The notes: generated by a model not told the origin, from the letters alone. DNA of 64,000 bases from an uncultured Candidatus Micrarchaeota archaeon (GCA_963714085.1 OY970229.1:160001-224000), one strand, 5' to 3'. Counted from the first letter of the stretch, positions 8,559-57,020 are shown. A program made the numbers and translations.

Positions 8559-9189
8559 AATAAACGGCCGGATATACTCCGTCATACGGGTCACGTCCAC
8601 GAACAGGAACGCGATAGCCAGGCTCAAGGACGACAGGATAATCATCAGCGTCCCGCGCAGGTGGCCCCAGGGCGAGGCGGACGCGGTGGCTGGAAGGCTG
8701 GAGGCCCGCGCGATAAAGAGCATCTCCAAAGGGAGATGGGGCAGCCGCAGTATGAGGGGGCTGGAGTTCCAGCCTGGCCAGGAGCTGGAGATCCTCGGGA
8801 GAAGATTCAGGATAACTGGGAATTCCAAGCCGGAGAGGATACGCAAGGGAATAGCCAGGCGCGTGCTTCCGGACCTGGAAGCCAGGATAAGGATGATAAA
8901 CGAGGCGCATTTCAGGGCCGAGATAAGGCGCGTGTCGCTCCGGGACAACAGCAGCCGATGGGGCAGCTACTCCACCAAGGGCACGGTGAACCTGAATTTC
9001 AGGCTGCTCTTCGCGCCTCCGGAAATATTGGAATATGTGATAGTCCACGAGCTGGCGCACAGCAGATACCGCGGCCACGGGCCCAGGTTCTGGGGCGTGG
9101 TGGAGAAGCTGGTCCCGGATTACAAGGAGAAACGGAAGTGGCTCAGGGAGAACGGGCACACGCTGGGAACCGGACCATCTTTCCAGTGA
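8542..9189 (+). CDS. M48/YgjP(DUF45)-like zinc metallopeptidase
   Basis: SRWGSYS, LNFRL, EYVIVHELAH and HGPRFW motifs. Confidence 0.88.
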   Translation: MEKLIEINGRIYSVIRVTSTNRNAIARLKDDRIIISVPRRWPQGEADAVAGRLEARAIKSISKGRWGSRSMRGLEFQPGQELEILGRRFRITGNSKPERIRKGIARRVLPDLEARIRMINEAHFRAEIRRVSLRDNSSRWGSYSTKGTVNLNFRLLFAPPEILEYVIVHELAHSRYRGHGPRFWGVVEKLVPDYKEKRKWLRENGHTLGTGPSFQ

Positions 9190-9204
9190 TTGGGGATTTG
9201 AACC
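9172..9204. repeat. 33-bp direct repeat, copy 1 (M48 gene 3' end)
   Basis: GGACCATCTTTCCAGTGATTGGGGATTTGAACC, identical at 10310-10342. Confidence 0.95.
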
Positions 9205-9332
9205 TCCATAAATATCCAGTGTCTGCATTCAGCATTTGTGATATTCAAAGTTATTCTTCGTCAAATGTCATATTTGTCGCTTGAAATGGATAAAAACGAT
9301 AAATTTAAATACTGTTTTTATGTAATATATTT

Positions 9333-10247
9333 ATGGAGCATGCGCAGCCCAAAAACCGTAAACTTGAATTACGGCTTAAAGAAGGATTTCTTTCACCTAA
9401 TGTAAGAAGAGAACTCAAAGGACCCATTTCATGCATTACTACTATGAAGCCTATTGTTGAAGTTACATTTAATAGAAAGCCACCTGTTTTTGGAGCGATT
9501 GATAATACTAGACCCCGGCAGATTGTCGGTCCTAGCCAAAAACTTGAAACTCTTAAAACAATGGCAATGGCATTGAGGACATTTGGTGAAAAAGTTCGCA
9601 TAGCTGAATTAGTTGATATGGTAAGAAAAAACCTGGTCTATCCGTACCCTGGTTCTGGCTTAGAGGCCCGATTTGATGCTTTGGAAAATGATGCCAAACA
9701 AGATGATGATAAACGACTTTCATTGGGGAAAGGAGTGCGATCTGAAAATCTGTCCGTTTTTGTAGATGCTGGAATTGGCAAATGCAGGCATTTTGCTGCA
9801 CTTTATGGGATTCTTGGCGCTTCGGCTAATTTAGACGTAGAACTTTTAGGCGGAATTGTAAGAAATTTCAATAGACCTGACACTAAATTACCTGCTTTCA
9901 AATCAATCCCCTTGGGCGTACAAGTTGAGCATGCTTTCAATGAAGTTCATTTAAATGGCGAAAGGATTCCTGTTGATCCTACGGCAAACATGGTTTGTTT
10001 TGACGATTCATCAAAAGCAGTGCACTACGAAAATTATGGTGTATGCCAGTTCAAAGACGACGAGGTCTCAATCCATGCATCAGATAGAGTTTTGAGCATG
10101 ACACAGCAATTTAATCTTACACGAAGTGGTTTGATAGTAAGGATTAGTGTAGCTGGGGAACCCAAAGCCCCATTGACTGCTTCTTTTGATATGGAAATTC
10201 AAAGCGCTAAACCTATAGTTGAAGGAGTCGAAATCCAAGTTTCATGA
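9333..10247 (+). CDS. Transglutaminase/papain-like Cys-His-Asp domain protein, AT-rich
   Basis: GKCRHFAAL, EHAFNEV and VDPT give the triad; visibly AT-richer than its flanks. Confidence 0.7.
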   Translation: MEHAQPKNRKLELRLKEGFLSPNVRRELKGPISCITTMKPIVEVTFNRKPPVFGAIDNTRPRQIVGPSQKLETLKTMAMALRTFGEKVRIAELVDMVRKNLVYPYPGSGLEARFDALENDAKQDDDKRLSLGKGVRSENLSVFVDAGIGKCRHFAALYGILGASANLDVELLGGIVRNFNRPDTKLPAFKSIPLGVQVEHAFNEVHLNGERIPVDPTANMVCFDDSSKAVHYENYGVCQFKDDEVSIHASDRVLSMTQQFNLTRSGLIVRISVAGEPKAPLTASFDMEIQSAKPIVEGVEIQVS

Positions 10248-10309
10248 TTCATTCTTTCGCTCCGTTTCAGCTGCCTAGTAGCCTAATCCGTATAAAGACT
10301 GTTTCGGGT

Positions 10310-10342
10310 GGACCATCTTTCCAGTGATTGGGGATTTGAACC
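10310..10342. repeat. 33-bp direct repeat, copy 2
   Basis: Identical to 9172-9204. Confidence 0.95.
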
Positions 10343-10398
10343 CGAATTCGGTATAATGTCGCTTTTTAAGTATTAATGCGAAGGTTTAAATAAAGCGA

Positions 10399-11052
10399 AT
10401 GGGCAATGATATCATGGGAACGCCATCACTTAGGATGAAAAGCCTTGAGGATACCTGTAGAGATAGGCCCAGGGACAGGCTAACGGTGTATAAGCTGCCT
10501 GCTGAAAAATTGAATCTGCTAGGGACCGAGCTTAGATGCAGACTTGGCCCTACCGAAGCCGGAAATCTCCTTCGCGCTCTTTGCGAGGAAGACGATGCTA
10601 CGTTGGGGATGATCGGCGTCTCTCATGAAACGTTATCTGAACGATTGAAATCCCGGATACTGAATCCGAAAGCTACGGATAGAATCGATTTAAGCAGAGG
10701 CATCGAACACTGCCCATTCGGCAATGCGGGCTCATGCGACGTTCCTGAGCTATCTTCTGCAACGATCGCCCTCGTCAAAGTAGAATTGGATGCCGCACTG
10801 CGGTTTTCGCATCTGTTGGTCCATTTGGTCGCTGGGCACGGTTTTTTCGGATTTCCGGAACCGTCCTACACCGGCGTACCGGTCAGTACGTCCCGTGCGT
10901 GGCCCTTGGATCTCGCGCTCATGCTGGATTTGATTGACTCGGAGAAGCATGCGAGGGTAATTTCACAAGTCTATGGAGACGCGCTTACATGGAAAAGCCG
11001 ATTTTGGCCGGTTCGCGAGCTGGGACCAGGTCCTACTAGCGACTATAGATAG
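10399..11052 (+). CDS. Hypothetical protein
   Basis: 217-aa ORF after an AT-rich TATA-like region. Confidence 0.65.
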   Translation: MGNDIMGTPSLRMKSLEDTCRDRPRDRLTVYKLPAEKLNLLGTELRCRLGPTEAGNLLRALCEEDDATLGMIGVSHETLSERLKSRILNPKATDRIDLSRGIEHCPFGNAGSCDVPELSSATIALVKVELDAALRFSHLLVHLVAGHGFFGFPEPSYTGVPVSTSRAWPLDLALMLDLIDSEKHARVISQVYGDALTWKSRFWPVRELGPGPTSDYR

Positions 11053-11228
11053 AGTTGATTACTCCATCCGATCCATGCGAACAGAAGACATCGCATTTCA
11101 ATTCTTTTTAGGCCGATCCAAGCATTCTCTTCCTGGAACTGCTTTTCCTAGCCCTTGACGGAAATGGATTGGCGCCGATGCGCCCGCCCTATTGAAAAAG
11201 TTTTTTAAACGTTAACTAGGAAATCCGC

Positions 11229-11291
11229 TATGGCGATGAAGCTCACCAGGCACTAGACCGAACCGCCCTCACCGGGCTGATGGCTTCTACT
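11229..11291 (+). ncRNA. Fluoride (crcB-class) riboswitch
   Basis: TATGGCGATGAAGCTCACC...AACCGCCCTCACCGGGCTGATGGCTTCTAC. Shows GGCGATG start, P1 GGCGA/TCACC (one mismatch), P2 GCCC/GGGC, GCTGATG and pseudoknot GAAGC/GCTTC-TAC. A TTTTAAA box lies ~25 nt upstream. Confidence 0.8.
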
Positions 11292-11309
11292 TCCAGAGGG
11301 ACAGATGCT

Positions 11310-11462
11310 ATGAACGTTGAAGACGCAAGGGTATGCACGACATGCCTCATGAACACCGGAATGAACATTTTGTTGGCCAAGAAAGACGACGTGTTCGTAT
11401 GCCCCAAGAATCCTGCGCACAGGTTCAGGCTGGGAAAAGACGGCTACCTGAGATCGATTTAG
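11310..11462 (+). CDS. 50-aa zinc-ribbon-like micro-protein
   Basis: CTTC...CPKNPAH ligand set; GAGGG RBS-like element upstream of the ATG. Confidence 0.7.
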   Translation: MNVEDARVCTTCLMNTGMNILLAKKDDVFVCPKNPAHRFRLGKDGYLRSI

Positions 11463-11918
11463 CATTCGTATTCGAAGACGGTTTCCATGGACGCGGCTTG
11501 AGCCTCGGCGCGTCAATCGCTCTGGACGACCGGAAAACAAAAGATTAGCGTCTTTCACTCGTCGTCCTTAACCGGAGCAAGCTGCGGCTTGCAATTAAGC
11601 CTAAGGAAAGATTCGTCATACCCTGAGACGAGCGAAAAAAGAGATGCCTTGATTCCGTCAAACAATCGGATCCGCATGACTCCCTTTAGCCGGACCTTGT
11701 ATATAATGCCGCGTTTTCACGTCGGAGAGTTCCGGAAGGCCTGAAACGATGGCTTTGCACAGGAAAAACCGCGAAACGTGTCCCCAAACCATAGGAAACC
11801 CCGGCCTGCGGATGACGCTGACCCTAATCGCCGGTTTTTGGGTTAGGGCGCGCGCAGCGGAAAGAACGGTGTCAGAAAGAGGACTGACACGCTGAAGCAA
11901 AGCGTTTTATAACCTAGT

Positions 11919-15822: not shown

Positions 15823-15910
15823 ATAGTTATTATATATGTATAATAGTGTTTATAAATAGTCGCATGTCGCGATTCTGGAGAACGCGGGCGGCCCGGCTTT
15901 GGCTTTAATG

Positions 15911-15934
15911 CGTCGTATTGGCCGGCTTCACGTG
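15911..15934. repeat. 24-bp direct repeat, second copy at 16528-16551
   Basis: CGTCGTATTGGCCGGCTTCACGTG is exact in both places and brackets gene 15971-16504. Confidence 0.9.
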
Positions 15935-15970
15935 CAGAATTATAAAACTAATCGTTGCAATACACGTATT

Positions 15971-16504: not shown

Positions 16505-16615
16505 CGAACAGGCCTTGCGATTCAATCCGTCGTATTGGCCGGCTTCACGTGTGACTTTGGGTGCAAAGCTTCCCGGACCCAAGGCATTTAAAATCACGCG
16601 ACGCTAGAGTCAGGC

Positions 16616-28077: not shown

Positions 28078-28127
28078 TTCTTTTCCTCTCCGTGCCTCTT
28101 GAGGGCTCGGGGGACACGAACGAGTCG
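28078..28127 (-). repeat. Degenerate orphan copy of the atpD 3' tail (copy C)
   Basis: GACACGAACGAGTCGC (28112-28127) is identical to 30464-30479; upstream TTCCTCTC..TGCCTCTT is also shared. Confidence 0.7.
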
Positions 28128-28164
28128 CATGCATTCTTAAACACTTTTATATACATTAGAATCC

Positions 28165-29055
28165 ATGAAACAGGACGTGAGGCGGGGGAAGGAAGTGACC
28201 CAGAAGCCGATGAGGCATCTGGATGCTTCGGTGATAACAGGTTTAGGAGAGAAATACCAGCCCAAAGAGACCGTCATCCCCTGCACGGGCAATGCGATAA
28301 GGTTGGGGGTCGGCGACGGAGCCGTGGGGATGACCGATCATGAGATAATGGACATCCTACGGAAAGACCGCGAATCGGCCGGGATCGACAGATTGCCCCT
28401 TAAGCAAAGAAAGACGCTTGTCGAGTTACGCATCAAATTAAGCAAAGACGGGGCCGGATCGTTCACACCGCAGGAAAGAATGTGGTTACAGCGGTCTATC
28501 CGCCCGGTCCAGGAGGCCGTCAACCCGGAAGAGAGGCAGAGGCGGGATACCCGGGTCGCCGCGTTCCTGGCGTTCTATGATGGCAAGCGATGCGATGAAG
28601 GCGTCTTGAACGATTTTTTCACCCGGGAAGCGATTGAAACGCTGGTAAGCGACGCTTCGGAGGTGCTGGGCCCGTATGGCGTCGGTGAAGAGAAGGCGCG
28701 CGGGTTCGCCCATAGGTGCGGAAGATGCTTCCTGGAGAATTGCCGCGCTATCATAGACGAAGGATTCGAAACCGGCCAGATCACGCGTTCAAACCTGGCC
28801 CGCACGTTGTTTGCCAGATATCTGAATCCGAAACACATGCTGTATTTCCTCGATTACATCCATTTCGGCACAGAGGAGCGTTTCGGCTTCAGCGGGATCC
28901 CCGAGCTGCTCGGACGCGAATTGAAAAATATGACGAAGAAAGATCCCGAAGATATCGAGGGGAAGCTGGAGACCGTCCAGTTCCCGACGAGCCTGTACGC
29001 GCTGCATATCACTGCGTTCAATCCCGGGAGGGGCGGCTCTACAGGGAACAGATAG
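28165..29055 (+). CDS. Hypothetical protein
   Basis: 296-aa ORF with a TTTTATAT box upstream. Confidence 0.7.
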   Translation: MKQDVRRGKEVTQKPMRHLDASVITGLGEKYQPKETVIPCTGNAIRLGVGDGAVGMTDHEIMDILRKDRESAGIDRLPLKQRKTLVELRIKLSKDGAGSFTPQERMWLQRSIRPVQEAVNPEERQRRDTRVAAFLAFYDGKRCDEGVLNDFFTREAIETLVSDASEVLGPYGVGEEKARGFAHRCGRCFLENCRAIIDEGFETGQITRSNLARTLFARYLNPKHMLYFLDYIHFGTEERFGFSGIPELLGRELKNMTKKDPEDIEGKLETVQFPTSLYALHITAFNPGRGGSTGNR

Positions 29056-29145: not shown

Positions 29146-29481
29146 TCATTTGCCAAGAATGGCCTTGACTGCGGTTTCGAGGGCAGGGAGCTTGTTCGTC
29201 ACCACATCCCAGACGATCGCCATGTCCACGGCAGCGTATTCGTGGACGAGGACGTCCCTCAGACCGGATATCTTCTTCCATTCGATGTCCGGATGCTGCT
29301 TTTTGATATCGGCTGGCACGCTTTTCGCGGCTTCGCCTATGATGAGAAGGTTTCTTATCACCGCATCAGACGTGAGGCTGTTTCCAGCGAACGCCTCGAA
29401 GTCCATGCCTTTTGAATATCTGCGTATTTTGCCTGCCGCTTCGAGGATATCCTCGAGATAGACATTATAGTCCTTGGACAT
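29146..29481 (-). CDS. hepT: HepT-like (DUF86/HEPN) ribonuclease toxin
   Basis: IIGEAA, EWKKISGLRDVLVHEY (RX4HXY motif). Confidence 0.92.
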   Translation of the reverse strand: MSKDYNVYLEDILEAAGKIRRYSKGMDFEAFAGNSLTSDAVIRNLLIIGEAAKSVPADIKKQHPDIEWKKISGLRDVLVHEYAAVDMAIVWDVVTNKLPALETAVKAILGK

Positions 29482-29755
29482 AAAGCGCCTCTTCTTTCAC
29501 GTAGCTGAGAGCGGGCTTCAGACTGCTTTCCATCACCAGGTCCACTTTCCGGTGGAACAGGCGTTCAAGGAAGAATTTAAGCTCCATGTAGTTGTCGAAT
29601 GTCGCGGTCCTGAAGGAGACCAGGAAATCCAGGTCGCTGCCCTTCTTCTCCGTGCCTTTGAGCACCGAGCCGAAGAGCCCTATCTGCTTGACTTCGTATC
29701 TCCTTATCTCCTCTTTGTGCTCTTCGAGCGTCTGCACTATTCGTTTCGGAGTCAT
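29465..29755 (-). CDS. mntA: MNT-family minimal nucleotidyltransferase antitoxin
   Basis: LFGSVLKGTEKKGSDLDFLV (GSX10DXD) and RKVDLV; overlaps the HepT gene. Confidence 0.92.
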   Translation of the reverse strand: MTPKRIVQTLEEHKEEIRRYEVKQIGLFGSVLKGTEKKGSDLDFLVSFRTATFDNYMELKFFLERLFHRKVDLVMESSLKPALSYVKEEALYVQGL

Positions 29756-29849: not shown

Positions 29850-29904
29850 TCAGCCGGCCTTCTTCTCGAGTTGCCTCTTTATTGACTTGAGGGAGACGAA
29901 CGAG
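29850..29904 (-). repeat. Orphan copy of the atpD 3' tail (copy A), reads SFVSLKSIKRQLEKKAG*
   Basis: 29864-29904 is 37/41 identical to 30435-30475; 3 of the 4 differences are synonymous. Confidence 0.92.
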
Positions 29905-29994
29905 CCGGCCGAGCATCGCTCTCGCCTTAAAGGCCAGGCCCTCGTTCACGCGCAGTGGCAACCGTTTATAATAATTCGATTCGTACTACCCTCC

Positions 29995-30405
29995 ATGAGG
30001 ATCTACATCTGCTGCAGCAAGCACTTCTACCACCTGATAGCTCCGATAAAGGGAAAGCTCGAAGAGCGGGGCCATGCGGTGACCCTTCCCAACAGCTACG
30101 ACGAGCCGTTCAAGGAGGAGGAGATGAAGAAGCAGGGGAAAGCGGCGCACGTGGCGTGGAAGGCGGGCATGATAAGGATGCAGGACCCGAAGGTGCGGGC
30201 GAATGACGCGGTGCTGGTGCTGAACTTCGAGAAAAACGGGGTCAAGAACTATATCGGCGGGGCAACTTTCCTGGAAATCTTCATGGCGTTCCAGCTCGGG
30301 AAGAGGATATTCCTCTACAACCCGGTGCCGGACAATATTTTCCGGGACGAGCTGGTCGCGATGGACCCCGTCCTGATAGAGGGGGACCTGTCGCGGATAA
30401 GATAG
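29995..30405 (+). CDS. Nucleoside 2-deoxyribosyltransferase-like protein
   Basis: MRIYICCS and DAVLVLN...YIGGATFLEIFMAFQLGKRIFL motifs. Confidence 0.7.
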   Translation: MRIYICCSKHFYHLIAPIKGKLEERGHAVTLPNSYDEPFKEEEMKKQGKAAHVAWKAGMIRMQDPKVRANDAVLVLNFEKNGVKNYIGGATFLEIFMAFQLGKRIFLYNPVPDNIFRDELVAMDPVLIEGDLSRIR

Positions 30406-30408: not shown

Positions 30409-31062
30409 TCAGCCGTTCTTCTCCTTCTTCTTCCTCTCGAGCTGCCTCTTTATTGCCTTGAGCGACACGAACGAGTCGCGCTCCATCTCGTCCAGCCTGA
30501 AGGATATCATGAGCCTGGTCTCGTCCAGCTGGGGTATGAGCACGAACTCGAGCGCATTGACTCTTCTCTTTGTCTTCTCGATCTCCACGATGAGCTTCTT
30601 CATCGCGGTCTCGCTCTCGGCCAGCTTGATGACGAGTTTGAGGACGTCGTCGAACTTCTCCACGCCCTGGTCTATCTTGGCAGAGGTCGATGCGACGGAG
30701 TAGGTCGGCAGCTCTATGAAGCGCGTGGATGCCATCTGGGTCGTCAGGTACGGTATCTTCACGCCCATGACGTTCTTGACCTCGATGTCTATGTCGATGT
30801 CCTTCCTGAGGTTGAGCGACACCGAGCCCAGCTCCCACGACGGATGATAGGTGCCGGCCAGCGATACCGCTGCGTAGCCCTCTTTCATCTTGACCCCGAG
30901 CTCGCCGCGCAGGTCCTGGGCCTTCTTGAGTATCTTGAAGAACTCCAGGATGAGCGCGTCCCTCTTCTGCTTGAGCAATTTATGCCCCTTCTTGGCCAGG
31001 GCTATGCGCTCCTTGATCTTTATGAGCTCCATGCGCGTCGGGTTGACGTCGAGTACCGCCAT
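30409..31062 (-). CDS. atpD: A/V-type ATP synthase subunit D
   Basis: NPTRMEL, GHKLLKQKRDAL and KTKRRVNALE motifs. Confidence 0.97.
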   Translation of the reverse strand: MAVLDVNPTRMELIKIKERIALAKKGHKLLKQKRDALILEFFKILKKAQDLRGELGVKMKEGYAAVSLAGTYHPSWELGSVSLNLRKDIDIDIEVKNVMGVKIPYLTTQMASTRFIELPTYSVASTSAKIDQGVEKFDDVLKLVIKLAESETAMKKLIVEIEKTKRRVNALEFVLIPQLDETRLMISFRLDEMERDSFVSLKAIKRQLERKKKEKNG

Positions 31063-39402: not shown

Positions 39403-39460
39403 TTTTCTTTTTTCTATTTATGTTAAAGATATACTAAACCATTAGCTTGAGGCTAGTAAG

Positions 39461-39766
39461 ATGGCGCTAGAGCTTTTCTTGATATGGTATTTCATAATCG
39501 GTTTTCTGCTGGCCAACGGCGTGCCACATTTCGTATTTGGTGCGGCAGGGAAGATATTCAGGAGCCCGTTCGGCCAAAAATCGCAACCCACGGTCAACGT
39601 ACTCTGGGGACTGTTCAACTTCGTGCTCGCAACGATAATCGCCATGGGGCTGGTGATGCTCAACCTGTACGATAGCTATGCGCTGCCGGCCATGCTGATC
39701 GGGTTCTGGCTCAGTGCGTTGATATTCGGGTTAGAAATCAAGAGATTCCTGAACGAGCCTAAATGA
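39461..39766 (+). CDS. Small membrane protein
   Basis: Three TM segments; ANGVPHF..G...SPF..NVLWG pattern. Confidence 0.75.
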   Translation: MALELFLIWYFIIGFLLANGVPHFVFGAAGKIFRSPFGQKSQPTVNVLWGLFNFVLATIIAMGLVMLNLYDSYALPAMLIGFWLSALIFGLEIKRFLNEPK

Positions 39767-39920: not shown

Positions 39921-40697
39921 ATGAAATGCGCGATGGTCTCGCTGGTAGGCGACCAGAGCAGGGCGAACAGGGCCGCGTTCAGGAAGGAGAAGTTCGGCAA
40001 CGCCGTGCTGGTCAGCAGCATACTCGAGAGGACGAAGGGCAGCGACCTCGTGCTCTTCTCGGGCTGGACGCTCAAAAGCAAGGAGGAGCTGGAGGAGGTC
40101 GTCCGCAGGACCGCGGGCACGGCGCAGACATTCATACTCGAGGTCGGGTTCGGCCTGCGCGCGAAGGACGCGAGCGAGGGCTACTACGTGATAAGCCCTA
40201 GGAAGGACGGCCCCGAGGCATTGAAGCAGGAGTTCGCCTTCAGCAAGGACGTCAACGGCAAGCGAGACAGGATAAACTCCTATCTGGACAAGCTGGAGAA
40301 GGAGCGCTGCTTCGACATAAACGGCAGGAAGATGCGGCTCATAATCTGCGGCGAGAACAACGTGCTGAAGAACATCCAGTCGCAGGGGAATAAAGTAGTG
40401 TGCCGCGTGGACGACGAGGGCTCGCGCAGGAGGCTGGACGCGATACTCAGGGACACGGACGTGTTCCTCAACCCCTCGCACACGCCGCCCGGCAACCTCG
40501 GCAAGATGCACAGGCGCTGGGAGTTCCTGAGCCAGGACGGACGCGCGGCGCTGTTCGTCACGAACGAGAACCCGGGGCGGAGCAAGGACCTGGGCAAGCG
40601 CTCGCTCTCGTACGCGTTCCAGGACGGCGCGCAGAAGAAGGCCACGCACGAGATCGACGAGGCGGGCAACTACAGGATGACGTTCGTGGAGCTCTAG
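39921..40697 (+). CDS. Divergent carbon-nitrogen hydrolase (nitrilase-fold)-like protein
   Basis: DLVLFSG and RLIICGENN (nucleophile-Cys context), FLNPSH. Confidence 0.6.
   Translation: MKCAMVSLVGDQSRANRAAFRKEKFGNAVLVSSILERTKGSDLVLFSGWTLKSKEELEEVVRRTAGTAQTFILEVGFGLRAKDASEGYYVISPRKDGPEALKQEFAFSKDVNGKRDRINSYLDKLEKERCFDINGRKMRLIICGENNVLKNIQSQGNKVVCRVDDEGSRRRLDAILRDTDVFLNPSHTPPGNLGKMHRRWEFLSQDGRAALFVTNENPGRSKDLGKRSLSYAFQDGAQKKATHEIDEAGNYRMTFVEL
40646..40693 (+). repeat. 48-bp direct repeat (gene tail), second copy at 41439-41486
   Basis: GCACGAGATCGACGAGGCGGGCAACTACAGGATGAC(G/A)TTCGTGGAGCT, 47/48 identical; brackets the TA pair. Confidence 0.95.
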
Positions 40698-40731: not shown

Positions 40732-41097
40732 TCACTTTTTCCGGTAGCCGAACATTCTGTCATACGTCGGATGGTCTATGACGTAAAGGATGAACGCGAC
40801 AATCTCGATCTGGTTTCCATCGAGAGTATACAGCATCCTCCAATAGCCGGTCAGTTCAACGCGGAACAGGTTCGAGACATCCAAGGTTTTCGGAATCAGG
40901 TTATGGGCGACCTTATCCCCGAAAGTCGGATTGATCTTCAGGAGTTCTGACTTTTGTTTTATGGACTTCAATAGCTGGATCTCTTCCGAGTTTGTTATCC
41001 CCTTGGCCTGTTGCCCGCCAACGATCCGGTTAAGCTCTTCGAACTGCTCTTTGGCCTGGTCCAGCAGGATGACTTTGACGGGGCGCCTGTCGCTCAT
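40732..41097 (-). CDS. RelE-like toxin (putative)
   Basis: VKVILLDQAKEQF and LFRVELTGYWRMLYTL pattern; ATG overlaps the upstream gene's stop. Confidence 0.7.
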   Translation of the reverse strand: MSDRRPVKVILLDQAKEQFEELNRIVGGQQAKGITNSEEIQLLKSIKQKSELLKINPTFGDKVAHNLIPKTLDVSNLFRVELTGYWRMLYTLDGNQIEIVAFILYVIDHPTYDRMFGYRKK

Positions 41098-41363
41098 ATT
41101 TCCAACCCTCGTTGTTTGATTCTCTCGAGCTCTGCTGGAGGACGATAGATCCAAACGACGCCTTTGGTGGTGATGAGGACTTTGCCGCTTTCTTGGAGAT
41201 AATCCAGGACTTGCAGGAGCGTCGAGTGCATCACTTGCTTTGGGAGCCTCCGTTTCAGCTCTGAAACCTTGATTATCTCTTTTGCCTCTTGCAGCACTTT
41301 CTCCACCATCATCACGGTATTGAGTGTTGGCGAGTGCATTATCTGGATTTGTTCTCCTCTCAT
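41094..41363 (-). CDS. wHTH antitoxin-like protein (putative)
   Basis: HSPTLNTVMMVE..ELKRRLP..LDYLQESGKV; small gene coupled to the toxin. Confidence 0.7.
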   Translation of the reverse strand: MRGEQIQIMHSPTLNTVMMVEKVLQEAKEIIKVSELKRRLPKQVMHSTLLQVLDYLQESGKVLITTKGVVWIYRPPAELERIKQRGLEI

Positions 41364-41591
41364 AATATATGTTTATACAATAAAGGTATATAAATATATC
41401 TATTTTGCATGGATTTAATTTAAACGATGCTTCGGGATGCACGAGATCGACGAGGCGGGCAACTACAGGATGACATTCGTGGAGCTGTGAGGGCGCCGAG
41501 GCGCAGCGGCTGATTTTCCTTTTTCCCTACACTTCTTGGAGGGCTGGATGATCGCCGGGATATGGCCGTGCTTTCCTGCATCGGCAGGATT

Positions 41592-45425: not shown

Positions 45426-45575
45426 TACCGCACCTCTCCATCAGTAAACGTGTTATTCAACAACGTACTTAAAAACTTGTCTATTAACACACGCCTCTGG
45501 CGTTCCTTCCGCGTTTCAGCTTCGGATCAAAGGCTAAAGCAGCCGGCATGAAGGACGAGAGCGGCTGACCTTTTC

Positions 45576-46118
45576 TTATAATTCGTCATCGGCCTTACGA
45601 CGAGGGCGTTCCGGCCTTTTCGGAGGCGCGGCGATTTTCTCGCTCAGGTATCTTGTTCTGGGGTCCGCGTACCGGCTCTCGAACACGCTGATTCGCGCTG
45701 ACGGGTCCAGCCTGAAGCGGTCGAGCGCTGCGGGCAGGTTTATGTCGGTGGACTCCAGCGTCTTCAGGTAGCCGACATAACCGAGCAGCGCGAGCCGCTG
45801 CACTTCGGAGCCGTAGCACCTGCACATGGCGAGCACGGTGATATGCTCGCGCTCGGTGAGCGGCCTGTCAGCGAAAGACAGCAGGGTCAGGCAGCTTTTC
45901 GTGATCATCACGTCTGGATGGAACTGCTCGATTCTCCGGTTTAGAAGCCGCCTGACGCTCTTTTCCATCGCTTTTTTTCTCCGGTTCAGAAGGCGCCTGG
46001 CGTTCCTGCGCATTATCGTCTCCGGGTCCAGCGGTTGGCGCGGCTTCGGGGCTGCGCGCGGCACCCGTCTTTCGCAGGGCGGTTCCATCATTATCGCGAA
46101 ACTTAGCTGCCTCCCCAA
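45576..46118 (-). CDS. Hypothetical basic protein
   Basis: 180-aa Arg-rich ORF with a TTG start. Confidence 0.55.
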   Translation of the reverse strand: MGRQLSFAIMMEPPCERRVPRAAPKPRQPLDPETIMRRNARRLLNRRKKAMEKSVRRLLNRRIEQFHPDVMITKSCLTLLSFADRPLTEREHITVLAMCRCYGSEVQRLALLGYVGYLKTLESTDINLPAALDRFRLDPSARISVFESRYADPRTRYLSEKIAAPPKRPERPRRKADDEL

Positions 46119-47933: not shown

Positions 47934-47934
47934 G

Positions 47935-49251: not shown

Positions 49252-49252
49252 G

Positions 49253-50617: not shown

Positions 50618-50735
50618 CTTATGTCCAGAACTGCTTTAAAAGCTACTGTTTTTTACATTTTTAGCAACCAAAGCCACGGACCCGCGTTCCCCAGAGGGAT
50701 GGACTGGCGAGGCCCTCCTTCAAGAGAAAGCAGGA

Positions 50736-51176
50736 TCAGAGGAACTTGCTCATCACGCTGAGGGTACGTTTCCCTCCCCATTGCCTCTCCAGGCGCGCTT
50801 CCTCCGCGTATCCCTTTCTCTTGTAGAATCCGTAGGCTTTTGAGGATGGGAAGGTCCACAGCCAGATTTTCCTGCATTTGTGCCTCTTGGCCGCGGCCTC
50901 GCATCTTCCGAGTAGCATGGAGCCTGCTCCGGCCCCGCGGCGGTCTTTGGCCACTATGAAGGCCCCTATCTTGGCCACGTTGCGGCCTATGTGCAGGGAC
51001 GCCACCCCGACGGTCTTCCCGTCCTCCACGGCCTTGAAGAACAGCTTCTTTTCCCTGATGGAGAAGGTCAGGTACTCGTCCCGCCCTTCCTTGCCGAAGA
51101 ACTCGCCGAAATAGCGCTCGAACTCCCTGTCCGCGAAGCGCTGGTAGGCCCACTTGGACGACGTCTTGACTTCCAT
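50736..51176 (-). CDS. GNAT-family N-acetyltransferase
   Basis: VAKDRRGAGAGSMLL and AYGFYKRKGY motifs. Confidence 0.9.
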   Translation of the reverse strand: MEVKTSSKWAYQRFADREFERYFGEFFGKEGRDEYLTFSIREKKLFFKAVEDGKTVGVASLHIGRNVAKIGAFIVAKDRRGAGAGSMLLGRCEAAAKRHKCRKIWLWTFPSSKAYGFYKRKGYAEEARLERQWGGKRTLSVMSKFL

Positions 51177-51262
51177 GGACAAAGAAGGTGGCGGCAAACT
51201 ATAAATATCATTGTTTTTGGCGATGCGCCCGCTTTTTAAATTGTTTTAATTAGTATATTAGT

Positions 51263-52162
51263 GTGAATACTAAACAGGGACTCCCGGAGGCGCGCGCGTC
51301 GCTGCTTTCGACGTTTCGCGCGGCGTCCGAGGACAATACCGCCCGGTCCGCGATAAGGGCGCACCGCCTGCGCAGGCTGCACGAGCCCACTGTGGAGGAG
51401 ATAGGCGCCTACAGGAAGAGCGGCGGCAAGGCCAATATCTACCAGGTGTGCGCCGAGTCGCTCCTGCGCCTGCGGGGCATGCCCATGGCGAAAGGCAAGA
51501 TAGAGAGGGCGCTCTTCGCTGAAGAGGTGGAGAGGCTGCTCTGCAACAGCGCAGAAACGAAGGACACGGAGCACAAGGAGAGGTTCGGCGAGCTCGCGCA
51601 CTCGTTCTCCCGCCTCATCGCGGTGCATTACGAGGACGAGTACGGGAGGCAACCCGGGCGGCTGGACGGGGAGCTCAAGATGATCCTGCCTTACCTGGCC
51701 AAACACCTTATGGCCGAGCTGGAGCTGTGCATGGAGGCGAGATTCGCGCGGCCCGCGAGCAACCTGTGCAAGGTCTCGTTCTTCGACATCCAAGCCAAGC
51801 TCGACATGCTCGGAAGCCATCCTGAGAGGATAGTGAAGGCCAATGACAGGAGCATCATCGACGCCGCCATGAACGGCGTGAACCTAAGGCTCGCGGACAC
51901 TCTCGCAGCTGGGGCGAAGGCCAAGCTCGACATGCTGGAGGCCCATCCTCTGAAGGCAGTGAGGATCAATGCCAGGAGCATCCTCAATGCCGCGCTGATA
52001 AGGGGGACCCTGAGGCTCGCGGACACTCTCGCCGCCGGAGCTGCCGAAGCCCTCAGGAAGATGGAGAAGCGGCTCGGGGTGGGAATGGCCAAAACGCCGT
52101 TTTCCGAGATGCTCGCATCCGGCACCCTGGACGTGGACGCGTTCCTCAAGAGGGACACCTGA
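51263..52162 (+). CDS. Hypothetical protein with an internal 42-aa tandem duplication
   Basis: AKLDML...LRLADTLAAGA occurs twice with a 126-bp period. Confidence 0.7.
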   Translation: MNTKQGLPEARASLLSTFRAASEDNTARSAIRAHRLRRLHEPTVEEIGAYRKSGGKANIYQVCAESLLRLRGMPMAKGKIERALFAEEVERLLCNSAETKDTEHKERFGELAHSFSRLIAVHYEDEYGRQPGRLDGELKMILPYLAKHLMAELELCMEARFARPASNLCKVSFFDIQAKLDMLGSHPERIVKANDRSIIDAAMNGVNLRLADTLAAGAKAKLDMLEAHPLKAVRINARSILNAALIRGTLRLADTLAAGAAEALRKMEKRLGVGMAKTPFSEMLASGTLDVDAFLKRDT

Positions 52163-52292
52163 GAAGAAAAATGACATTTCGCGTAATGAATTCGGATGGA
52201 TATTTACGACGCGCGAGTGTGCCCGGAAACGCGTAAAGACCCGGGAGCAACCGTTCAATATATATTATTAATATCGTTTCGTCATCAGTATC

Positions 52293-52850
52293 ATGATGGT
52301 TTCTAATGTGATTGTGGCGGGCGTAGTCATAGTTGCAATTCTGCTCGTATTATTCTACCTCTCGCCTTACTCTGACATTGATCATGTAGACTGCATTACG
52401 CCAACGAACGTGCCGAACCCTGCCGGAGCGGAACTCTCGCCCTTCTGTGGTGTCGAAGTTGTCCCGTTCCCTGAGTCCCTTTTCATTCCGCCATTCCCAT
52501 TCAGGTCCAGAGATTCAGAATTCGTCGATTTTTGTAGGAGGAACATACCTACTGTCGAGGATTCGTGCAACGTTACGGTAACAAAAACGATGATTGAGAC
52601 CTTAAGCAGCGTAGATGACGAGTATTCGTGCGTATACTTTGTTAATAATTATACCTCGACAATATCGCTTGACAAATTTGCGGAACCGCTAACGCCCCAA
52701 GACACCCAAGCGATAACATTATTCAATTTGGATATGATATACCTGAAGGGTTTTGCGGTCAGCATCACTTCCGGGCCATTTGATTACGATTCATCTTGGG
52801 CCCCGTTGGATTATCAAAACTGTACGGATTTGAAGACGCGATTGCGTTAA
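52293..52850 (+). CDS. Membrane-anchored extracellular protein, paralog A
   Basis: N-terminal TM; clearly paralogous to 54658-55215 (PPFPFRSRDSEF.DFCRRNIPT). Confidence 0.8.
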   Translation: MMVSNVIVAGVVIVAILLVLFYLSPYSDIDHVDCITPTNVPNPAGAELSPFCGVEVVPFPESLFIPPFPFRSRDSEFVDFCRRNIPTVEDSCNVTVTKTMIETLSSVDDEYSCVYFVNNYTSTISLDKFAEPLTPQDTQAITLFNLDMIYLKGFAVSITSGPFDYDSSWAPLDYQNCTDLKTRLR

Positions 52851-52882
52851 TAACCCAATTTACCTTTTATGGATGTTAGAGT
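52847..52882 (-). repeat. Orphan copy of the glycoside hydrolase gene 3' tail (TLTSIKGKLGY*)
   Basis: Matches 55212-55247 with three differences, all silent in the GH frame (TTA/CTA, ACC/ACA, TAG/TAA). Confidence 0.9.
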
Positions 52883-52914
52883 GAAAGCATTTTGAGTGCA
52901 ATGCCGGCCGGTTT

Positions 52915-54015
52915 CTAGCCGCTTATCTTCTTCACGAAGATATTCCGCCCATCGAAGCTATATGCGAGTTTGGTGCCATCCGGGGACCAGTCAAAGAGGT
53001 CTGTGTTGTCGGTCGCCTCGCCTCCCTGGTCGGAGAAGACGAGCGTGCGGTTATCAAGGTCTATCACCGCAATGAACCCTCCTACGCATACCTGGGGTCC
53101 AGCCGATTCCGGGCATGCGGATTCCGAAAGGGTTCCACCCACAGCCACGTATCGGCCATCCGGGGAGGCTTCGATCTGATCCAACGAGCAGTCATATCCG
53201 AAAATCGCTTCGCAATCGAACGAATACAGCGTTTTCGCGGGGGCAGACTGGTTGAACGGATCGAGAGAGATCACGCTGGAAGTCCAGGGCGAGTCTGGCG
53301 AGGATCCATACAGCATCAGCATGTCACTATCGTTTATCCACTCGAAATTGTCCGCACGGTAATCTGAGAAATTGCCCAGCTGGTCGAAGCCGGGGATTGA
53401 ATAGATGGTCATCGTAGAATCGGCGCCGAAGAGGCGGTCATAGACCAAAACACCCAGATACCTCCCATCCGGGCTGAATTTGGTTATCGGGAGGTCATAT
53501 GTGCTGAAGTTTCGGATCACGGACAGGTTATCCATGTTGATGATGTAGAATCCATATCCGATCGTGAGATTGTTGATGTCCTGTGCATTATTGGAATTAG
53601 AAAACGATAAAGCGAGAAATCTTGAATCATTGGAGAGGGCCAGTGCAGGGACATCATCTGAGAACTGATTGATCGACATCGATGTGTTTGCTTCGATAAC
53701 GCCATTGTTCCAGATTGTGAGCAAGAAATCCGAGCCGTTGCACGAATATTCTTTCTCGTAGTCGGAAACCACGGTGCTATTGTCCGACCAGACGAAATCG
53801 CCCATCTGGTAGCAGTTTATTCCTCCGAACGAACCTGCTGGGGCGAGGTTTTGGTTGTAGAGCGAGACACCCTGGGTGCTGCCCAGGGAAATCTGGCCGG
53901 AAGGCGAGTATCTTAATCTGAGATTCCGGGCGATCTCCCCGCCCCTTGGTGATGTGGAAGTCGAGAGGCACCCGGCCAGAATTAGGAATGCGCATACGAA
54001 AAGGACTGCTTTCAT
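52915..54015 (-). CDS. WD40/TolB-like beta-propeller lipoprotein
   Basis: LAGC lipobox-like signal; SPDGRYL, SPDGRYV and WSPDGTKLAY repeats. Confidence 0.85.
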   Translation of the reverse strand: MKAVLFVCAFLILAGCLSTSTSPRGGEIARNLRLRYSPSGQISLGSTQGVSLYNQNLAPAGSFGGINCYQMGDFVWSDNSTVVSDYEKEYSCNGSDFLLTIWNNGVIEANTSMSINQFSDDVPALALSNDSRFLALSFSNSNNAQDINNLTIGYGFYIINMDNLSVIRNFSTYDLPITKFSPDGRYLGVLVYDRLFGADSTMTIYSIPGFDQLGNFSDYRADNFEWINDSDMLMLYGSSPDSPWTSSVISLDPFNQSAPAKTLYSFDCEAIFGYDCSLDQIEASPDGRYVAVGGTLSESACPESAGPQVCVGGFIAVIDLDNRTLVFSDQGGEATDNTDLFDWSPDGTKLAYSFDGRNIFVKKISG

Positions 54016-54098
54016 GAGGGGATATGGATTCGTATCCTCTTTTATTGTTACCCGTTTCGTTCGTACAGGGATCCTGTCGATGAATTTTCCATACAAGA

Positions 54099-54488
54099 CT
54101 ATTGGTAACTACTAAGGATACTAGTGCAATTAGTTATACTGGCATTAAGGCATTGTGGACATTCGTCCCTGCAATCGATTGCATAATGGTTTTCGCAGAG
54201 TTGAGTTCCGTTCGAATCGAAGTAATACTCGTTTATTTCGGAAGTCGCATACGCGCTAGTAACATCGAAGATATCGGTGTTTTCCAGTTTGCAGGCATAC
54301 AAATAGTAATACGTTGCCCCCAAGATGGACGTGCTTTTTATTGAAAAATACTTGTTATATACTTCTGGCGGAACGCCTTTGGACTTGGCAGCGTTGTAAT
54401 CCGGGAAATAAAGAACGTAACTCGCTACGATAATGACTGCGATGATAAAAATCGCAATAAGAAATACCTGGAAGATCTTTTTGTTCAT
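54099..54488 (-). CDS. Small membrane-anchored Cys-containing protein
   Basis: N-terminal TM; YYFDSNGTQLC..C..C motif; AT-rich. Confidence 0.7.
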   Translation of the reverse strand: MNKKIFQVFLIAIFIIAVIIVASYVLYFPDYNAAKSKGVPPEVYNKYFSIKSTSILGATYYYLYACKLENTDIFDVTSAYATSEINEYYFDSNGTQLCENHYAIDCRDECPQCLNASITNCTSILSSYQ

Positions 54489-54657
54489 ATCCCACTCTAG
54501 AAACTTGTATTTTTTTAATCCAGCCGGTATATTCCGGCTGTCTTGGCCGGAATAGCGATCCGTTCACGACCCGGACCGTTCCTTATCAATTCCGGAAGGT
54601 TCTCGAACGCTTGCGCCAGGAGCATGCCTTATTTAACATTAACGTGCTAATACTATC

Positions 54658-55215
54658 ATGGTGGGTAAGAAGGCACTTGCGGTAGGCATTGCCATAGTCG
54701 TAATCTTACTCGTATTGTTCTACCTCTCGCCTTTTTCTAAATTTGATTTCAATCAGTGTTATACCCCGCAAAATATGTCGAATTCCCGCGAAGGAGAACT
54801 TATGCCGACTTGTGGGAATTTGGTATTTCCATTCCCCGCATCCGTTCTTCTTCCGCCCTTTCCATTCAGGTCCAGGGATTCTGAATTCATTGATTTTTGC
54901 AGAAGGAACATACCTACCATCGAGAATTCATGCAATGTAACCGTAGATACAACCCTGATCGAGACTTTAAGCAATGAAGATGATGAATACGCGTGTACTT
55001 ATATTTTCAATAATCCCAGATCATATATTTCGCTTAAAAAATTTGTGGAACCACTGACACCCCAAGAAACCGACGAGATAGGTACGTACAATCTGAATAT
55101 GATATACCTAAAGGATTTTGCAGTGAGCATATCCTCTGGGCCATTTGATTATGCCCCGTCTGTACCGAAATTCGATTATAAGAACTGCGCGGACTTGAAA
55201 GCGCGATTGCGCTAA
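54658..55215 (+). CDS. Membrane-anchored extracellular protein, paralog B
   Basis: Paralog of 52293-52850. Confidence 0.8.
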   Translation: MVGKKALAVGIAIVVILLVLFYLSPFSKFDFNQCYTPQNMSNSREGELMPTCGNLVFPFPASVLLPPFPFRSRDSEFIDFCRRNIPTIENSCNVTVDTTLIETLSNEDDEYACTYIFNNPRSYISLKKFVEPLTPQETDEIGTYNLNMIYLKDFAVSISSGPFDYAPSVPKFDYKNCADLKARLR

Positions 55216-57020
55216 TAACCCAATTTACCTTTTATGGAGGTTAAAGTGGAACGCCCAGTTTGCGATAATAACGAATCGTAAGTAAATGGTGCATACCCAT
55301 CTGCGCCTCCTTTCCGTACGGCGGCAATGTCAGATGTTAAATCATTTATAAGTCCGTTCATTTGCGGGGCAACCCAACCTCGAACGCAAGCAACCATTTT
55401 TTTAGTCGGGTAAGCAGTTTTGAGTGTGGCAATATAATTACCCATATCTTCAGAAGTTCCGCCTTTCCCAGCATAACTATACGCCATTGGCATGATTATA
55501 TCAACCTGAGCAGACACTTTGTCCTGCCCAACTCCGCTCATAACACCAACGGAAGCGAATACGTCGGCTGATAGCGTTTTATTCGGGAATGCCGTCTTGA
55601 CCATCTTTACAAATGTTTCAACCGCGCTTGAATCATAATTCCAGATGCTAAGTTTGGCGATATTTGGCGGTGTACTTGAATCATGTATGAGTTGAATAGG
55701 ACCACCTGGTGTAGATACTTCGAAGACATCTTCAGGTTGCGGGTATCTTATATAATCCAGATTGATTCCGTATAAGCCGGGATAGGCACTCGTGATTTCG
55801 GTCAGAATTGCCAATTCCTGGTTTCTTACATCGCTACTTTTAGGGTCTGCAAACAAATGGCTCGTATAACTGGCATCCCATAACGGAATGCCTTTGCTGT
55901 CAAGGAAACCGTCAAGCTTATCAGCCCCTGGGATGCTAAGTGGGATATTGTTTAGACTGAATTTCAACTTTCCCGTCACTCCCTGAATCTGTGCTGCATA
56001 CGGATCCTGGAACACCGGGAACCATGCGTGGAACCTAATCGTTTTGTTCCCATAAACTTGTTTGCAAACGGACATTATGCTGCCATTAGGGTCGAAACGG
56101 GCTTTTTGGGCGCTAGTAATTATCGGACTGACTCTCCCGCTGTATGCGCTACTTGGATAAAGCAATTGCCCGTAAGCCCCGCATTGAGGCGCATGCAGTT
56201 GGTCGTCAACTTTGAACGGAAGGAAGATATCAGTGACCCCGGCGTTCATCAGGTCCTGGCAGGCCGCTTTTAAGGTCCCGCCACCCACCAGGGTCTGTAG
56301 TTTTGTCAGGTCGATGGGGAATCTCCGCGGGGATAGGCTGGGATCAAAGACTGGTCCTTTGCAAGCCGGGAAGGAGAACATCCCGAATTGGTTCTGCATA
56401 GGGAACATGGTGGGATCGTAGAACGACCCGGGGCAAGGCCTTATGAAGACCCCCTTTACAATGTTACTAACTGGTCTGCATGTTCCGGTATCTAAAGTAT
56501 ATCCCGTATCTCCAAGATCGGGTAACTCCGAATTGCTAAGCCAAGTCTTATTGACGAGCGCCACAATTTCCGTATTCGGGGCGCTAAAAAAAGCTGTGTA
56601 ATCAGGTGCATGACCCAAATTCTGGGTCTGGCCTTCGTATTGATTTGCTCCGGGAACGTTAGGGTTGGGTTTAAGCGTTTTATTGTTGAATTCATTGTTG
56701 GAGTAGGGGTGATTGCTGCTCAAGGAAACGCTTTGAGGCGGAGAACCTGCCCCAAAACCTACAGCCAGCTCAAGAGTGTACTCTGAATGATTTAACCTTA
56801 GCGGTTCAGATTGTGACAGAGGACTGGCGGCATAGGTTTCAGCTTGCATGGAACAAGTGTATTTCTTTGATACGGCAGTAACTGATCCACTCACAGCAGC
56901 ATCAGGTTGATCCGCCTTGACCCGGTCCACCAGCGGTTTGGTTCCGAAAAAAGACACCGCGACCGCGATAGCCACGAGCGTTCTTTTTATCGTTCTTTTC
57001 GTGGATTCCATCATCGCCAT
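55212..57020 (-). CDS. Secreted glycoside hydrolase-like TIM barrel (GHL10/DUF187-like)
   Basis: Signal peptide; FHAWFPVF, GINLDYIRYP, LSADVF and VDIIMPMAY motifs. Confidence 0.8.
   Translation of the reverse strand: MAMMESTKRTIKRTLVAIAVAVSFFGTKPLVDRVKADQPDAAVSGSVTAVSKKYTCSMQAETYAASPLSQSEPLRLNHSEYTLELAVGFGAGSPPQSVSLSSNHPYSNNEFNNKTLKPNPNVPGANQYEGQTQNLGHAPDYTAFFSAPNTEIVALVNKTWLSNSELPDLGDTGYTLDTGTCRPVSNIVKGVFIRPCPGSFYDPTMFPMQNQFGMFSFPACKGPVFDPSLSPRRFPIDLTKLQTLVGGGTLKAACQDLMNAGVTDIFLPFKVDDQLHAPQCGAYGQLLYPSSAYSGRVSPIITSAQKARFDPNGSIMSVCKQVYGNKTIRFHAWFPVFQDPYAAQIQGVTGKLKFSLNNIPLSIPGADKLDGFLDSKGIPLWDASYTSHLFADPKSSDVRNQELAILTEITSAYPGLYGINLDYIRYPQPEDVFEVSTPGGPIQLIHDSSTPPNIAKLSIWNYDSSAVETFVKMVKTAFPNKTLSADVFASVGVMSGVGQDKVSAQVDIIMPMAYSYAGKGGTSEDMGNYIATLKTAYPTKKMVACVRGWVAPQMNGLINDLTSDIAAVRKGGADGYAPFTYDSLLSQTGRSTLTSIKGKLGY

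What the first reader, a model, noticed from the sequence alone, without database searches (positions are those of the whole stretch)
9172..55250. Recurrent gene-tail-bracketed cassettes: possible integrase-free gene accretion at gene 3' ends
Seen: at four loci, and probably a fifth, accessory genes lie between an anchor gene's 3' end and an orphan 24-55 bp copy of that same 3' end, usually including the stop. The anchors are the M48 gene (9172/10310), atpD (three orphan tails), the CN-hydrolase-like gene (40646/41439), the GH gene (52847/55212) and probably rpl15e (39390/41501). In the well-preserved atpD, CN-hydrolase and GH copies the differences are mostly synonymous, so these tails were once functional gene ends of another allele rather than neutral local duplications. 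No integrase, transposase or shared att motif is visible. Inference: cassettes from related strains recombine into the last codons of a gene, swap its tail and push older cassettes outward, giving integron-like arrays anchored on protein genes.
Basis: partly seen in the sequence, partly recalled or inferred. Interest (0 to 1): 0.82.

Follow-up and report, generated by a model that had tools for sequence, protein, structure and literature searches.

The report
Displaced gene tails mark archaeal insertions
In a tiny Micrarchaeota archaeon about twenty ordinary genes are followed by a small block of accessory DNA and then a stranded copy of their own last 6-33 codons, scars likely left when the cell's own recombination adds genes from relatives without an integrase, and behind the ATP-synthase gene atpD such blocks stack up at one fixed point in two related genomes.

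Summary
Differences are mostly synonymous (60:31). A congener is empty or differently filled at these sites and has its own scars elsewhere. No integrase, shared arm, motif or hairpin marks the cassettes; the three integrases sit on tRNA islands. New here: in 9 of 21 loci the cargo is a diverged homologue of the gene beyond the orphan tail, so many 'cassettes' are locus alleles added instead of replaced. The GH case is of this type. atpD is special: five tails in two genomes start within 4 nt, with reshuffled cargo. Best reading: host-recombination scars with re-use of existing brackets, a housekeeping-gene variant of Rhs/T6SS C-terminal displacement; not an integron. An absent trans-acting recombinase is not excluded at atpD. 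The scan noted this before, in this genome (e1-9844456) and in CPR bacteria (e1-793467).

The parts
8542..9189 (+). Anchor: YgjP-like metallopeptidase gene; ends GTGPSFQ*
   Evidence: PF01863 E 4.6e-37; G001 orthologue ends differently and lacks 9169-11533
9172..9204 (+). Native tail copy (18 nt coding + 15 nt past the stop)
   Evidence: 33/33 to 10310-10342
9333..10247 (+). Cargo ORF, 304 aa, GC3 0.29, no family hit
10310..10342 (+). Orphan YgjP tail
10399..11462 (+). Older accessory block (217-aa and 60-aa ORFs), also absent in G001; no significant tail at its far end
28078..28128 (-). atpD orphan tail 3 (decayed); DNA beyond it matches what follows atpD directly in G001
   Evidence: score 73 vs 10
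28165..29055 (+). Cassette C cargo, 296 aa, unknown; a 67%-identical homologue is the FIRST cassette behind atpD in L274
29064..29091 (-). atpD orphan tail 2
29146..29755 (-). Cassette B cargo: nucleotidyltransferase (29465-29755) + HepT-like RNase (29146-29481), an MNT-HEPN toxin-antitoxin-type pair
   Evidence: PF01909, PF01934; 69% copy bracketed by another gene's tail in G002; 84% copy in another genus
29850..29907 (-). atpD orphan tail 1, complete alternative C-terminus with stop
29995..30405 (+). Cassette A cargo, 136 aa, convergent with atpD, unknown
30409..31062 (-). Anchor: A/V-type ATP synthase subunit D (native tail 30430-30478)
   Evidence: PF01813, PRK00373
38884..39402 (+). Anchor: rpl15e (native tail 39384-39414); in G034 and G024 followed directly by the gene at 46191-46646
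39461..39766 (+). Cargo ORF, 101 aa membrane protein; lies elsewhere in strain X3
39921..40697 (+). Accessory gene inside the rpl15e block that became a nested anchor (nitrilase-fold label weak); native tail 40646-40693
40732..41363 (-). Cargo: two-gene toxin-antitoxin-like pair (121 + 89 aa; label from gene layout and recall, no Pfam hit); homologues in 25 of 98 family genomes
41439..41486 (+). Orphan tail of the 39921-40697 gene, one synonymous change
41495..41525 (+). Orphan rpl15e tail (decayed)
45539..45577 (+). Probable distal, more decayed rpl15e tail; a cleaner copy stands at this junction in strain X3
   Evidence: (32 vs null max 30), table 5c
52293..52850 (+). Older copy of the GH-neighbour gene (65% aa to 54658-55215)
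52847..52886 (-). Orphan GH tail (TLTSIKGKLGY*)
52915..55215 (.). Cassette: homologue of the neighbour gene (54658-55215 +), 129-aa ORF (54099-54488 -), beta-propeller-like ORF (52915-54096 -)
55212..57011 (-). Anchor: putative glycosyl hydrolase (DUF4015), itself accessory (GC3 0.47)

Best explanation
The repeats are gene ends stranded when DNA from a related lineage was added behind a gene, likely by the host's own recombination rather than an integrase. Shown: the orphan copy plus what follows it is the arrangement of the congener, the anchor carries a different allele's end, and the block between them is polymorphic. Inferred steps: (1) donor DNA that carries the same anchor gene followed by other genes (an allele of the variable neighbour gene, a toxin-antitoxin pair, an unknown ORF) pairs through the anchor (RadA present; no NucS mismatch nuclease found); (2) its far, non-homologous end is joined illegitimately near the border where homology stops, i.e. 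near the stop codon; a joint just inside the gene leaves an 18-99-nt orphan tail, a joint outside leaves no scar; (3) once a bracket exists in the population, the orphan tail can serve as a short second arm, so new cassettes enter at the inherited boundary and push old ones outward, as at atpD. The vehicle that brings the DNA is unknown.
For: Direction and excess over controls. Synonymous bias 60:31, third-position 81 of 144 mismatches; 59 of 88 after removing a double-counted hit, still above the 0.36-0.46 expected if both copies arose in place (p 3e-9 to 6e-5). G001's post-stop DNA matches what follows the orphan better in 7 of 19 loci, what follows the native tail in 1, neither or both in 11; at three loci the orphan, not the native tail, encodes the G001-like C-terminus. 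Three of 8 G001 scars are empty sites in this genome. 9 of 21 cassettes carry a 28-65% aa homologue of the gene beyond the orphan, baseline 67 of 1449 genes, while tails are up to 52/52 identical. Variable boundaries, also at one anchor (gdh-like -67/-57; a shared anchor -84 here vs -51 in G001). Same cargo with and without scar: a TA pair 93-96% identical at the same anchor has a scar in G001 only; 1 of 18 other loci of the window's TA-like pair is bracketed; the MNT-HEPN pair is bracketed by a different gene's tail in G002. At least one mirror-image orphan head and one intergenic bracket exist. RadA found, NucS not found in 37 genomes over the cut-off.
Against: Five atpD tails in two genomes begin within 4 nt with four different cargos; de novo illegitimate joints do not predict this, so step 3 is needed and is untested. 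The long donor arm predicted in the anchor was not seen in the one case examined (anchor 84-94% per 100 nt, cargo 93-97%). ComEC and DprA were not found in this genome (completeness 88%). Published HFIR is described as rare (PMC5361080, passages). The 3'-over-5' excess (19 vs 6) is only explained by argument. No donor is in hand, so microhomology at the joints could not be tested.
Confidence: 0.58

Rival explanations
1. att sites of site-specific integrases acting in trans and absent from this genome (lost elements, or helper viruses/plasmids); the cassettes are CIME-like remnants or satellites, each anchor being one integrase's target.
For: The layout equals an integrase identity block with a replacement 3' end (PMC10111431, passages). 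Fixed boundary at atpD in two genomes. The genome does hold integrase-less units with shared arms at tRNAs.
Against: About 20 different targets here and about 8 more in G001 with no integrase remnant seen in the called cargo genes; no arms shared among cassettes or with tRNA islands; boundaries differ at one anchor; 0 of 24 atpD, 0 of 27 rpl15e and 0 of 23 YgjP loci of relatives show a tail within 0.6-1.5 kb, 1 of 29 atpD loci with up to 6 kb; cargo is often an allele of the neighbour gene.
Confidence: 0.18
2. Jackson-type circles: cassettes loop out between two tail copies, travel as small circles and re-enter by single crossover in the 20-100-nt tail.
For: Preserves boundaries as at atpD; cargo order differs between this genome (A,B,C) and L274 (C',D); anchor not raised in identity beside a recently shared cassette. 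One X1 contig joins 9171 to 10310.
Against: The X1 joint runs through an exact 33-nt repeat in a 31-mer assembly and flank depth is not higher than cassette depth, so it may be a graph artefact. No circle junction seen (contigs drop rare forms). Does not explain how the first bracket arises; 18-33-nt homologies with mismatches are poor RadA substrates (own knowledge).
Confidence: 0.16
3. Local tandem duplication in place (tail plus next gene), followed by divergence or replacement of the duplicated gene.
For: 9 of 21 cassettes hold a homologue of the next gene; the genome has many paralogue arrays.
Against: Tails 85-100% identical beside homologues only 28-65% aa identical; synonymous excess beyond the in-place expectation; native and orphan tails encode different complete C-termini, the orphan matching G001 at three loci; 12 of 21 cassettes are unrelated to their neighbours.
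Confidence: 0.06
4. Strain-chimera or assembly artefact.
For: Metagenome-derived genome; G001 has a few 62-128-nt-spaced repeats that look like artefacts.
Against: X1 contigs span the atpD and 41.4-kb tails with no difference; independent assemblies show the same phenomenon with other cargo; tails carry many fixed differences.
Confidence: 0.02

Closest known systems
C-terminal displacement at rhs loci (Jackson et al. 2009, PMC2935791; passages seen)
   Same: Incoming DNA supplies a new 3' end and shunts the old one downstream; strings of stranded 3' fragments; no integrase known; homologous recombination proposed.
   Different: There the swapped part is a variable toxin domain behind a long conserved core; here the anchors are housekeeping and accessory genes at about 20 unrelated loci, the repeat is 18-99 nt, the protein end barely changes and the gain is the downstream cargo.
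Sequential displacement of T6SS effector-immunity modules in Vibrio cholerae (Kirchberger et al. 2017, PMC5361080; passages seen)
   Same: Additive insertion anchored on one side, homology-facilitated illegitimate recombination proposed, old modules pushed back, compared with integrons but no integrase evidence; alleles of the same slot accumulate.
   Different: Dedicated effector loci in bacteria; here genome-wide, in a DPANN archaeon in which ComEC and DprA were not found, no effector-immunity logic.
Integrase islands in protein genes (icd, fis; attP with replacement sequence) and CIME tandem accretion (PMC10111431 passages; CIME definition recalled)
   Same: Target gene restored by a replacement 3' end; identity block reaching the stop codon; tandems at one site (atpD).
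   Different: No integrase in cis, no arms shared with resident elements, many targets, variable boundaries, 0.4-2.4-kb units (one 5.6 kb).
Integrons (own knowledge; comparison also in PMC5361080 passages)
   Same: Small one- or two-gene units, several toxin-antitoxin pairs, newest unit nearest the fixed point.
   Different: No IntI, no attC hairpin, no common recombination site; units cannot move between anchors without acquiring a new tail.
Additive HGT through flanking homology (PMC11375855, passages)
   Same: Added genes often keep the donor's gene neighbourhood, pointing to recombination in flanks.
   Different: In the passages seen no duplicated gene-end scar is described; here the scar marks the joint to the base.

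Membership tests
Integron | Integron integrase beside the array | tested here: not met
   Three PF00589 proteins in the genome, all on tRNA islands far from the arrays
Integron | attC hairpin / common recombination site on cassettes | tested here: not met
   No shared sequence, consensus or folding excess at 21 junctions
Integron | Excision and re-insertion as circles | tested here: inconclusive
   One ambiguous empty-site joint, no circle joint in contigs
Integrase island / CIME at a CDS 3' end | Replacement 3' end restoring the target gene | tested here: met
Integrase island / CIME at a CDS 3' end | Integrase in cis or in a neighbouring element at the same site | tested here: not met
   no match over the cut-off for PF00239, none for PF01548
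Integrase island / CIME at a CDS 3' end | att arms shared with an autonomous element | tested here: not met
   Cassette ends vs nine tRNA-island arms score 9-13, control 10-19; elements absent from this genome could not be tested
Integrase island / CIME at a CDS 3' end | Fixed crossover point per target | tested here: inconclusive
   Fixed at atpD (5 tails); differs at two other anchors
Rhs/T6SS C-terminal (sequential) displacement | Stranded, formerly functional 3' ends downstream of an intact gene | tested here: met
Rhs/T6SS C-terminal (sequential) displacement | No dedicated recombinase at the locus | tested here: met
Rhs/T6SS C-terminal (sequential) displacement | Polymorphic toxin core with exchangeable effector tip and immunity gene | tested here: not met
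   Anchors are atpD, rpl15e, YgjP-like, GH and other ordinary genes
Homology-facilitated illegitimate recombination | Long homologous arm on one side | tested here: inconclusive
   Anchor identity not raised in the one shared recent cassette; no conspecific strains in hand
Homology-facilitated illegitimate recombination | Microhomology at the illegitimate joint | not testable with these tools
   Donor sequence beyond the joint is not available
Homology-facilitated illegitimate recombination | Natural transformation machinery | tested here: inconclusive
   ComEC and DprA not found in G000 (88% complete); DprA in 4 of 37 relatives over the cut-off, including congener G002; archaeal uptake systems not searched

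The most novel reading that the evidence does not exclude
This Micrarchaeota genus runs a population-level cassette platform on housekeeping-gene ends: a shared pool of one-gene and toxin-antitoxin cassettes, each carrying an atpD (or other) tail cut at a fixed base, is inserted and reshuffled by an undescribed, low-specificity or programmable recombinase that is none of the tyrosine, serine, IS110 or reverse-transcriptase families searched, and the same process builds the genome's paralogue arrays from foreign alleles.
Probability: 0.13. Interest if true: 0.85.

Novelty: new variant of a known kind. Interest (0 to 1): 0.55.

Why it matters
It gives a base-precise, countable record of how a streamlined DPANN archaeon with no recognisable cassette machinery gains genes, and suggests that some of its tandem 'paralogues' are foreign alleles added beside the old copy. 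Integrase-centred island finders miss such gains. The atpD array, with a fixed boundary and different cargo order in two genomes, is a concrete site at which integrase-free accretion can be tested. The principle (displacement of a 3' end) is known from Rhs and T6SS loci, which limits the surprise.

Tried and rejected
tRNA T-arm look of the YgjP repeat: no tRNA in the window; dropped. Six-base palindromes at the joints: 8 of 21 here (post hoc, control 0.10-0.12) but 1 of 12 in a validation set from four other genomes; rejected. Hairpins at joints: mean z -0.5 vs -0.8 in controls. Replication-direction bias: neighbouring anchors lie on both strands, by inspection only. purC tail bracketing the 46.7-57.3-kb accessory region: not found. 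Old YgjP tail near 11500: score 26, not convincing. X1 empty-site joint 9171-10310: cannot be told from a 31-mer graph path. Runs X2, X4, X5 gave only short pieces; joints in X3/X4 inside atpA/B come from other organisms and were ignored. G032 (another genus, 400 kb of about 1.03 Mb, 391 genes): 1 tail hit at score >=20 vs 0-2 in controls; difference from G000 not significant (p 0.10), so breadth beyond the genus is open; no long stretch from another family was examined. Cassette A had no real homologue in 98 family genomes. PDB search of the 39921 protein: nothing under E 0.7. The original HFIR papers were not held. No structure or complex prediction was run; not needed.
Full report
Setting. 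The window is positions 160001-224000 of a single 1.57-Mb contig. Close relatives are titled Candidatus Micrarchaeota. No gene caller was on hand, so I wrote one (1449 genes); starts are approximate and the catalogue is a lower bound: an ungapped scan missed a gapped tail behind a small gene at genome position 1357023 that I confirmed later.

Observation. All five repeats are present; details are in the observation check. Two corrections: the GH repeat is the edge of a 598-bp duplication that includes a convergent ORF, and both the GH gene and the 39921-40697 gene are accessory genes, the latter nested inside the rpl15e block. Genome-wide, a short non-coding copy of a gene's end lies downstream far more often than in controls: 18 of 1443 vs 3, 4, 5, 3, 1; with a wider window and score >=20, 19 of 1449 vs 3, 6, 8, 2, 1. 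Several control hits are promoter-and-start repeats of paralogue arrays or the same loci seen from the other side; at least one is a true orphan head. An unbiased scan found 66 short local repeats involving non-coding DNA, among them tRNA-island arms, promoter repeats and intergenic brackets, so tails are the largest single class but not the only one.

The tails were functional. Over 20 alignments (hand-excluded: two short or dubious ORFs and one opposite-strand view; one locus counted twice) 60 single-change codons are synonymous and 31 not, against 0.22 expected; 81 of 144 mismatches are third-position. With the double count removed, 59 of 88 exceeds even the 0.36-0.46 expected for a duplication in place. 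rpl15e (0:4) and one other locus (0:3) go against the trend.

Polymorphism and polarity. I rebuilt the congener G001 (68 contigs, median gene identity 83.5%). It is empty at atpD and YgjP. Of 19 alignments with an orthologue, G001's post-stop DNA matches what follows the orphan in 7, what follows the native tail in 1, and is uninformative in 11 (other cargo, both alike, or contig end); at three loci the orphan encodes the G001-like C-terminus. G001 has 10 of 1272 tail hits vs 2, 5, 5, 1, 2, and three of 8 examined are empty sites here. Strain X3 (about 92-93% identical over the ATPase operon) has 1.6 kb of other DNA between rpl15e and the 39921 gene and other DNA after YgjP. L274, an independent contig at 92%, has two atpD orphan tails starting at -68 and -67, a 67% homologue of cassette C in first place and a toxin-antitoxin-like pair in second. 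So the newest block is nearest the anchor, and the orphan with what follows is the older state.

Cargo. In 9 of 21 hand-curated loci a cargo gene is a 28-65% aa homologue of the gene just past the orphan tail (baseline 67 of 1449 genes). The rest include MNT-HEPN and other toxin-antitoxin-type pairs and unknown ORFs, mostly of lower GC3 than the anchors. Cargo is not tied to one anchor: the atpD MNT-HEPN pair is bracketed by a helicase-like gene's tail in G002 (35 nt, 74%, E 0.02; the helicase label is my reading of the sequence) and lies near another gene in G093 at 84%. The pair at 40732-41363 has matches in 25 of 98 family genomes; of 18 other loci examined, four with short flanks, one is bracketed. 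A pair 93-96% identical between this genome and G001 at the same anchor has a scar in G001 only.

No dedicated machinery found. Three tyrosine integrases, all at tRNA islands; no serine recombinase over the cut-off (one sub-threshold hit), no IS110, no reverse transcriptase, no ComEC, no DprA (genome 88% complete by markers; IS200/605 and other transposases were not searched). The tRNA-island arms resemble each other (scores 24-52), the cassette ends do not resemble them or each other (9-13). RadA is present and NucS was not found over the cut-off in any of 37 genomes. The anchors are not family-wide hot spots: 0 of 24 atpD, 0 of 27 rpl15e, 0 of 23 YgjP loci of relatives with 0.6-1.5 kb of flank (5, 2 and 5 loci dropped for short flank or missing C-terminus), and 1 of 29 atpD loci with up to 6 kb (4 dropped; partly the same genomes).

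Mechanism. I favour addition of a relative's locus by pairing in the anchor plus an illegitimate joint near the end of homology, with later re-use of an existing bracket as a second arm (0.58). It accounts for variable short tails, neighbour homologues, scarred and unscarred copies of the same cargo, and the lack of motifs. It does not by itself predict the fixed atpD boundary, and the long donor arm was not seen in the one testable case. Rivals: absent trans-acting integrases (0.18), circles between tails (0.16), duplication in place (0.06), artefact (0.02).

Comparison. It works like C-terminal displacement at rhs (PMC2935791, passages) and sequential displacement at V. cholerae T6SS loci (PMC5361080, passages), and its layout mimics integrase identity blocks (PMC10111431, passages), but it fails membership of integrons and CIMEs on integrase and arms, and of Rhs/T6SS on the anchor type. 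PMC11375855 (passages) supports flank homology as a route of additive transfer. Nine full-text searches showed no listing that describes genome-wide gene-tail scars in archaea; subscription papers, supplements and the original HFIR papers were not seen, and what I say of CIMEs and integrons beyond the cited passages is recalled. Earlier AI notes of this scan report the same kind of scar in this genome and in several bacteria; they gave me the Rhs paper as a lead, which I checked.

Verdict. Real, genome-wide, a new variant of a known kind; interest 0.55. The open and most interesting part is the fixed-boundary atpD array.

Noticed in passing
window 15897-15934 / 16514-16551: 38-nt direct repeat (33/38) in mostly intergenic DNA bracketing a 198-aa ORF (15908-16504): a scar of the same kind that does not use a gene tail.
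   Followed up: partly
window 42849-42909 vs 40977-41037: Isolated 61-nt, 92% copy of an internal piece of the 121-aa toxin-like gene, 1.9 kb downstream; probably the remnant of a deleted second copy.
   Followed up: no
window 302-2533, 21973-27450, 46659-50617: Tandem arrays of HEAT-like, ankyrin and unknown paralogues; may have been built by the same additive transfer of alleles.
   Followed up: no
window 46659-57300: About 10.6 kb of accessory genes between the Rpp30-like gene (46191-46646) and purC; these two genes are adjacent in G024 and G034, and the gap is much shorter in G001. No purC tail found.
   Followed up: partly
genome 758497-758569 / 759545-759618: Orphan 5' head (73 nt, frameshifted) of an Lrp-like gene 1.05 kb upstream, bracketing a HEAT-repeat gene: mirror image of the tail scars.
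   Followed up: partly
genome 282937-304665, 1258486-1289329, 1308139-1314210, 487752-489634: tRNA-linked integrase islands and small integrase-less units that share arm sequences with each other; a separate, integrase-dependent system.
   Followed up: partly
genome 1473487 / 1472741: 16-nt copy of a tRNA-Lys 3' end 750 nt downstream, no integrase nearby.
   Followed up: no
genome 1429612-1429673 / 1431421-1431482: Perfect 62-nt intergenic direct repeat bracketing two ORFs (1.8 kb) at the edge of a low-GC region.
   Followed up: no
L274 1980-3548: About 1.57-kb insertion in atpA relative to the window, likely an intein (not checked).
   Followed up: no
genome-wide: Only three tyrosine recombinases, all 400-450 aa and tRNA-linked; no short XerA-like protein was found with PF00589.
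   Followed up: no
L174 1432-2455 (G093): The MNT-HEPN pair there is flanked by a 14-nt repeat, and a 73-nt near-perfect repeat lies on one side; not a gene tail by my reading.
   Followed up: no
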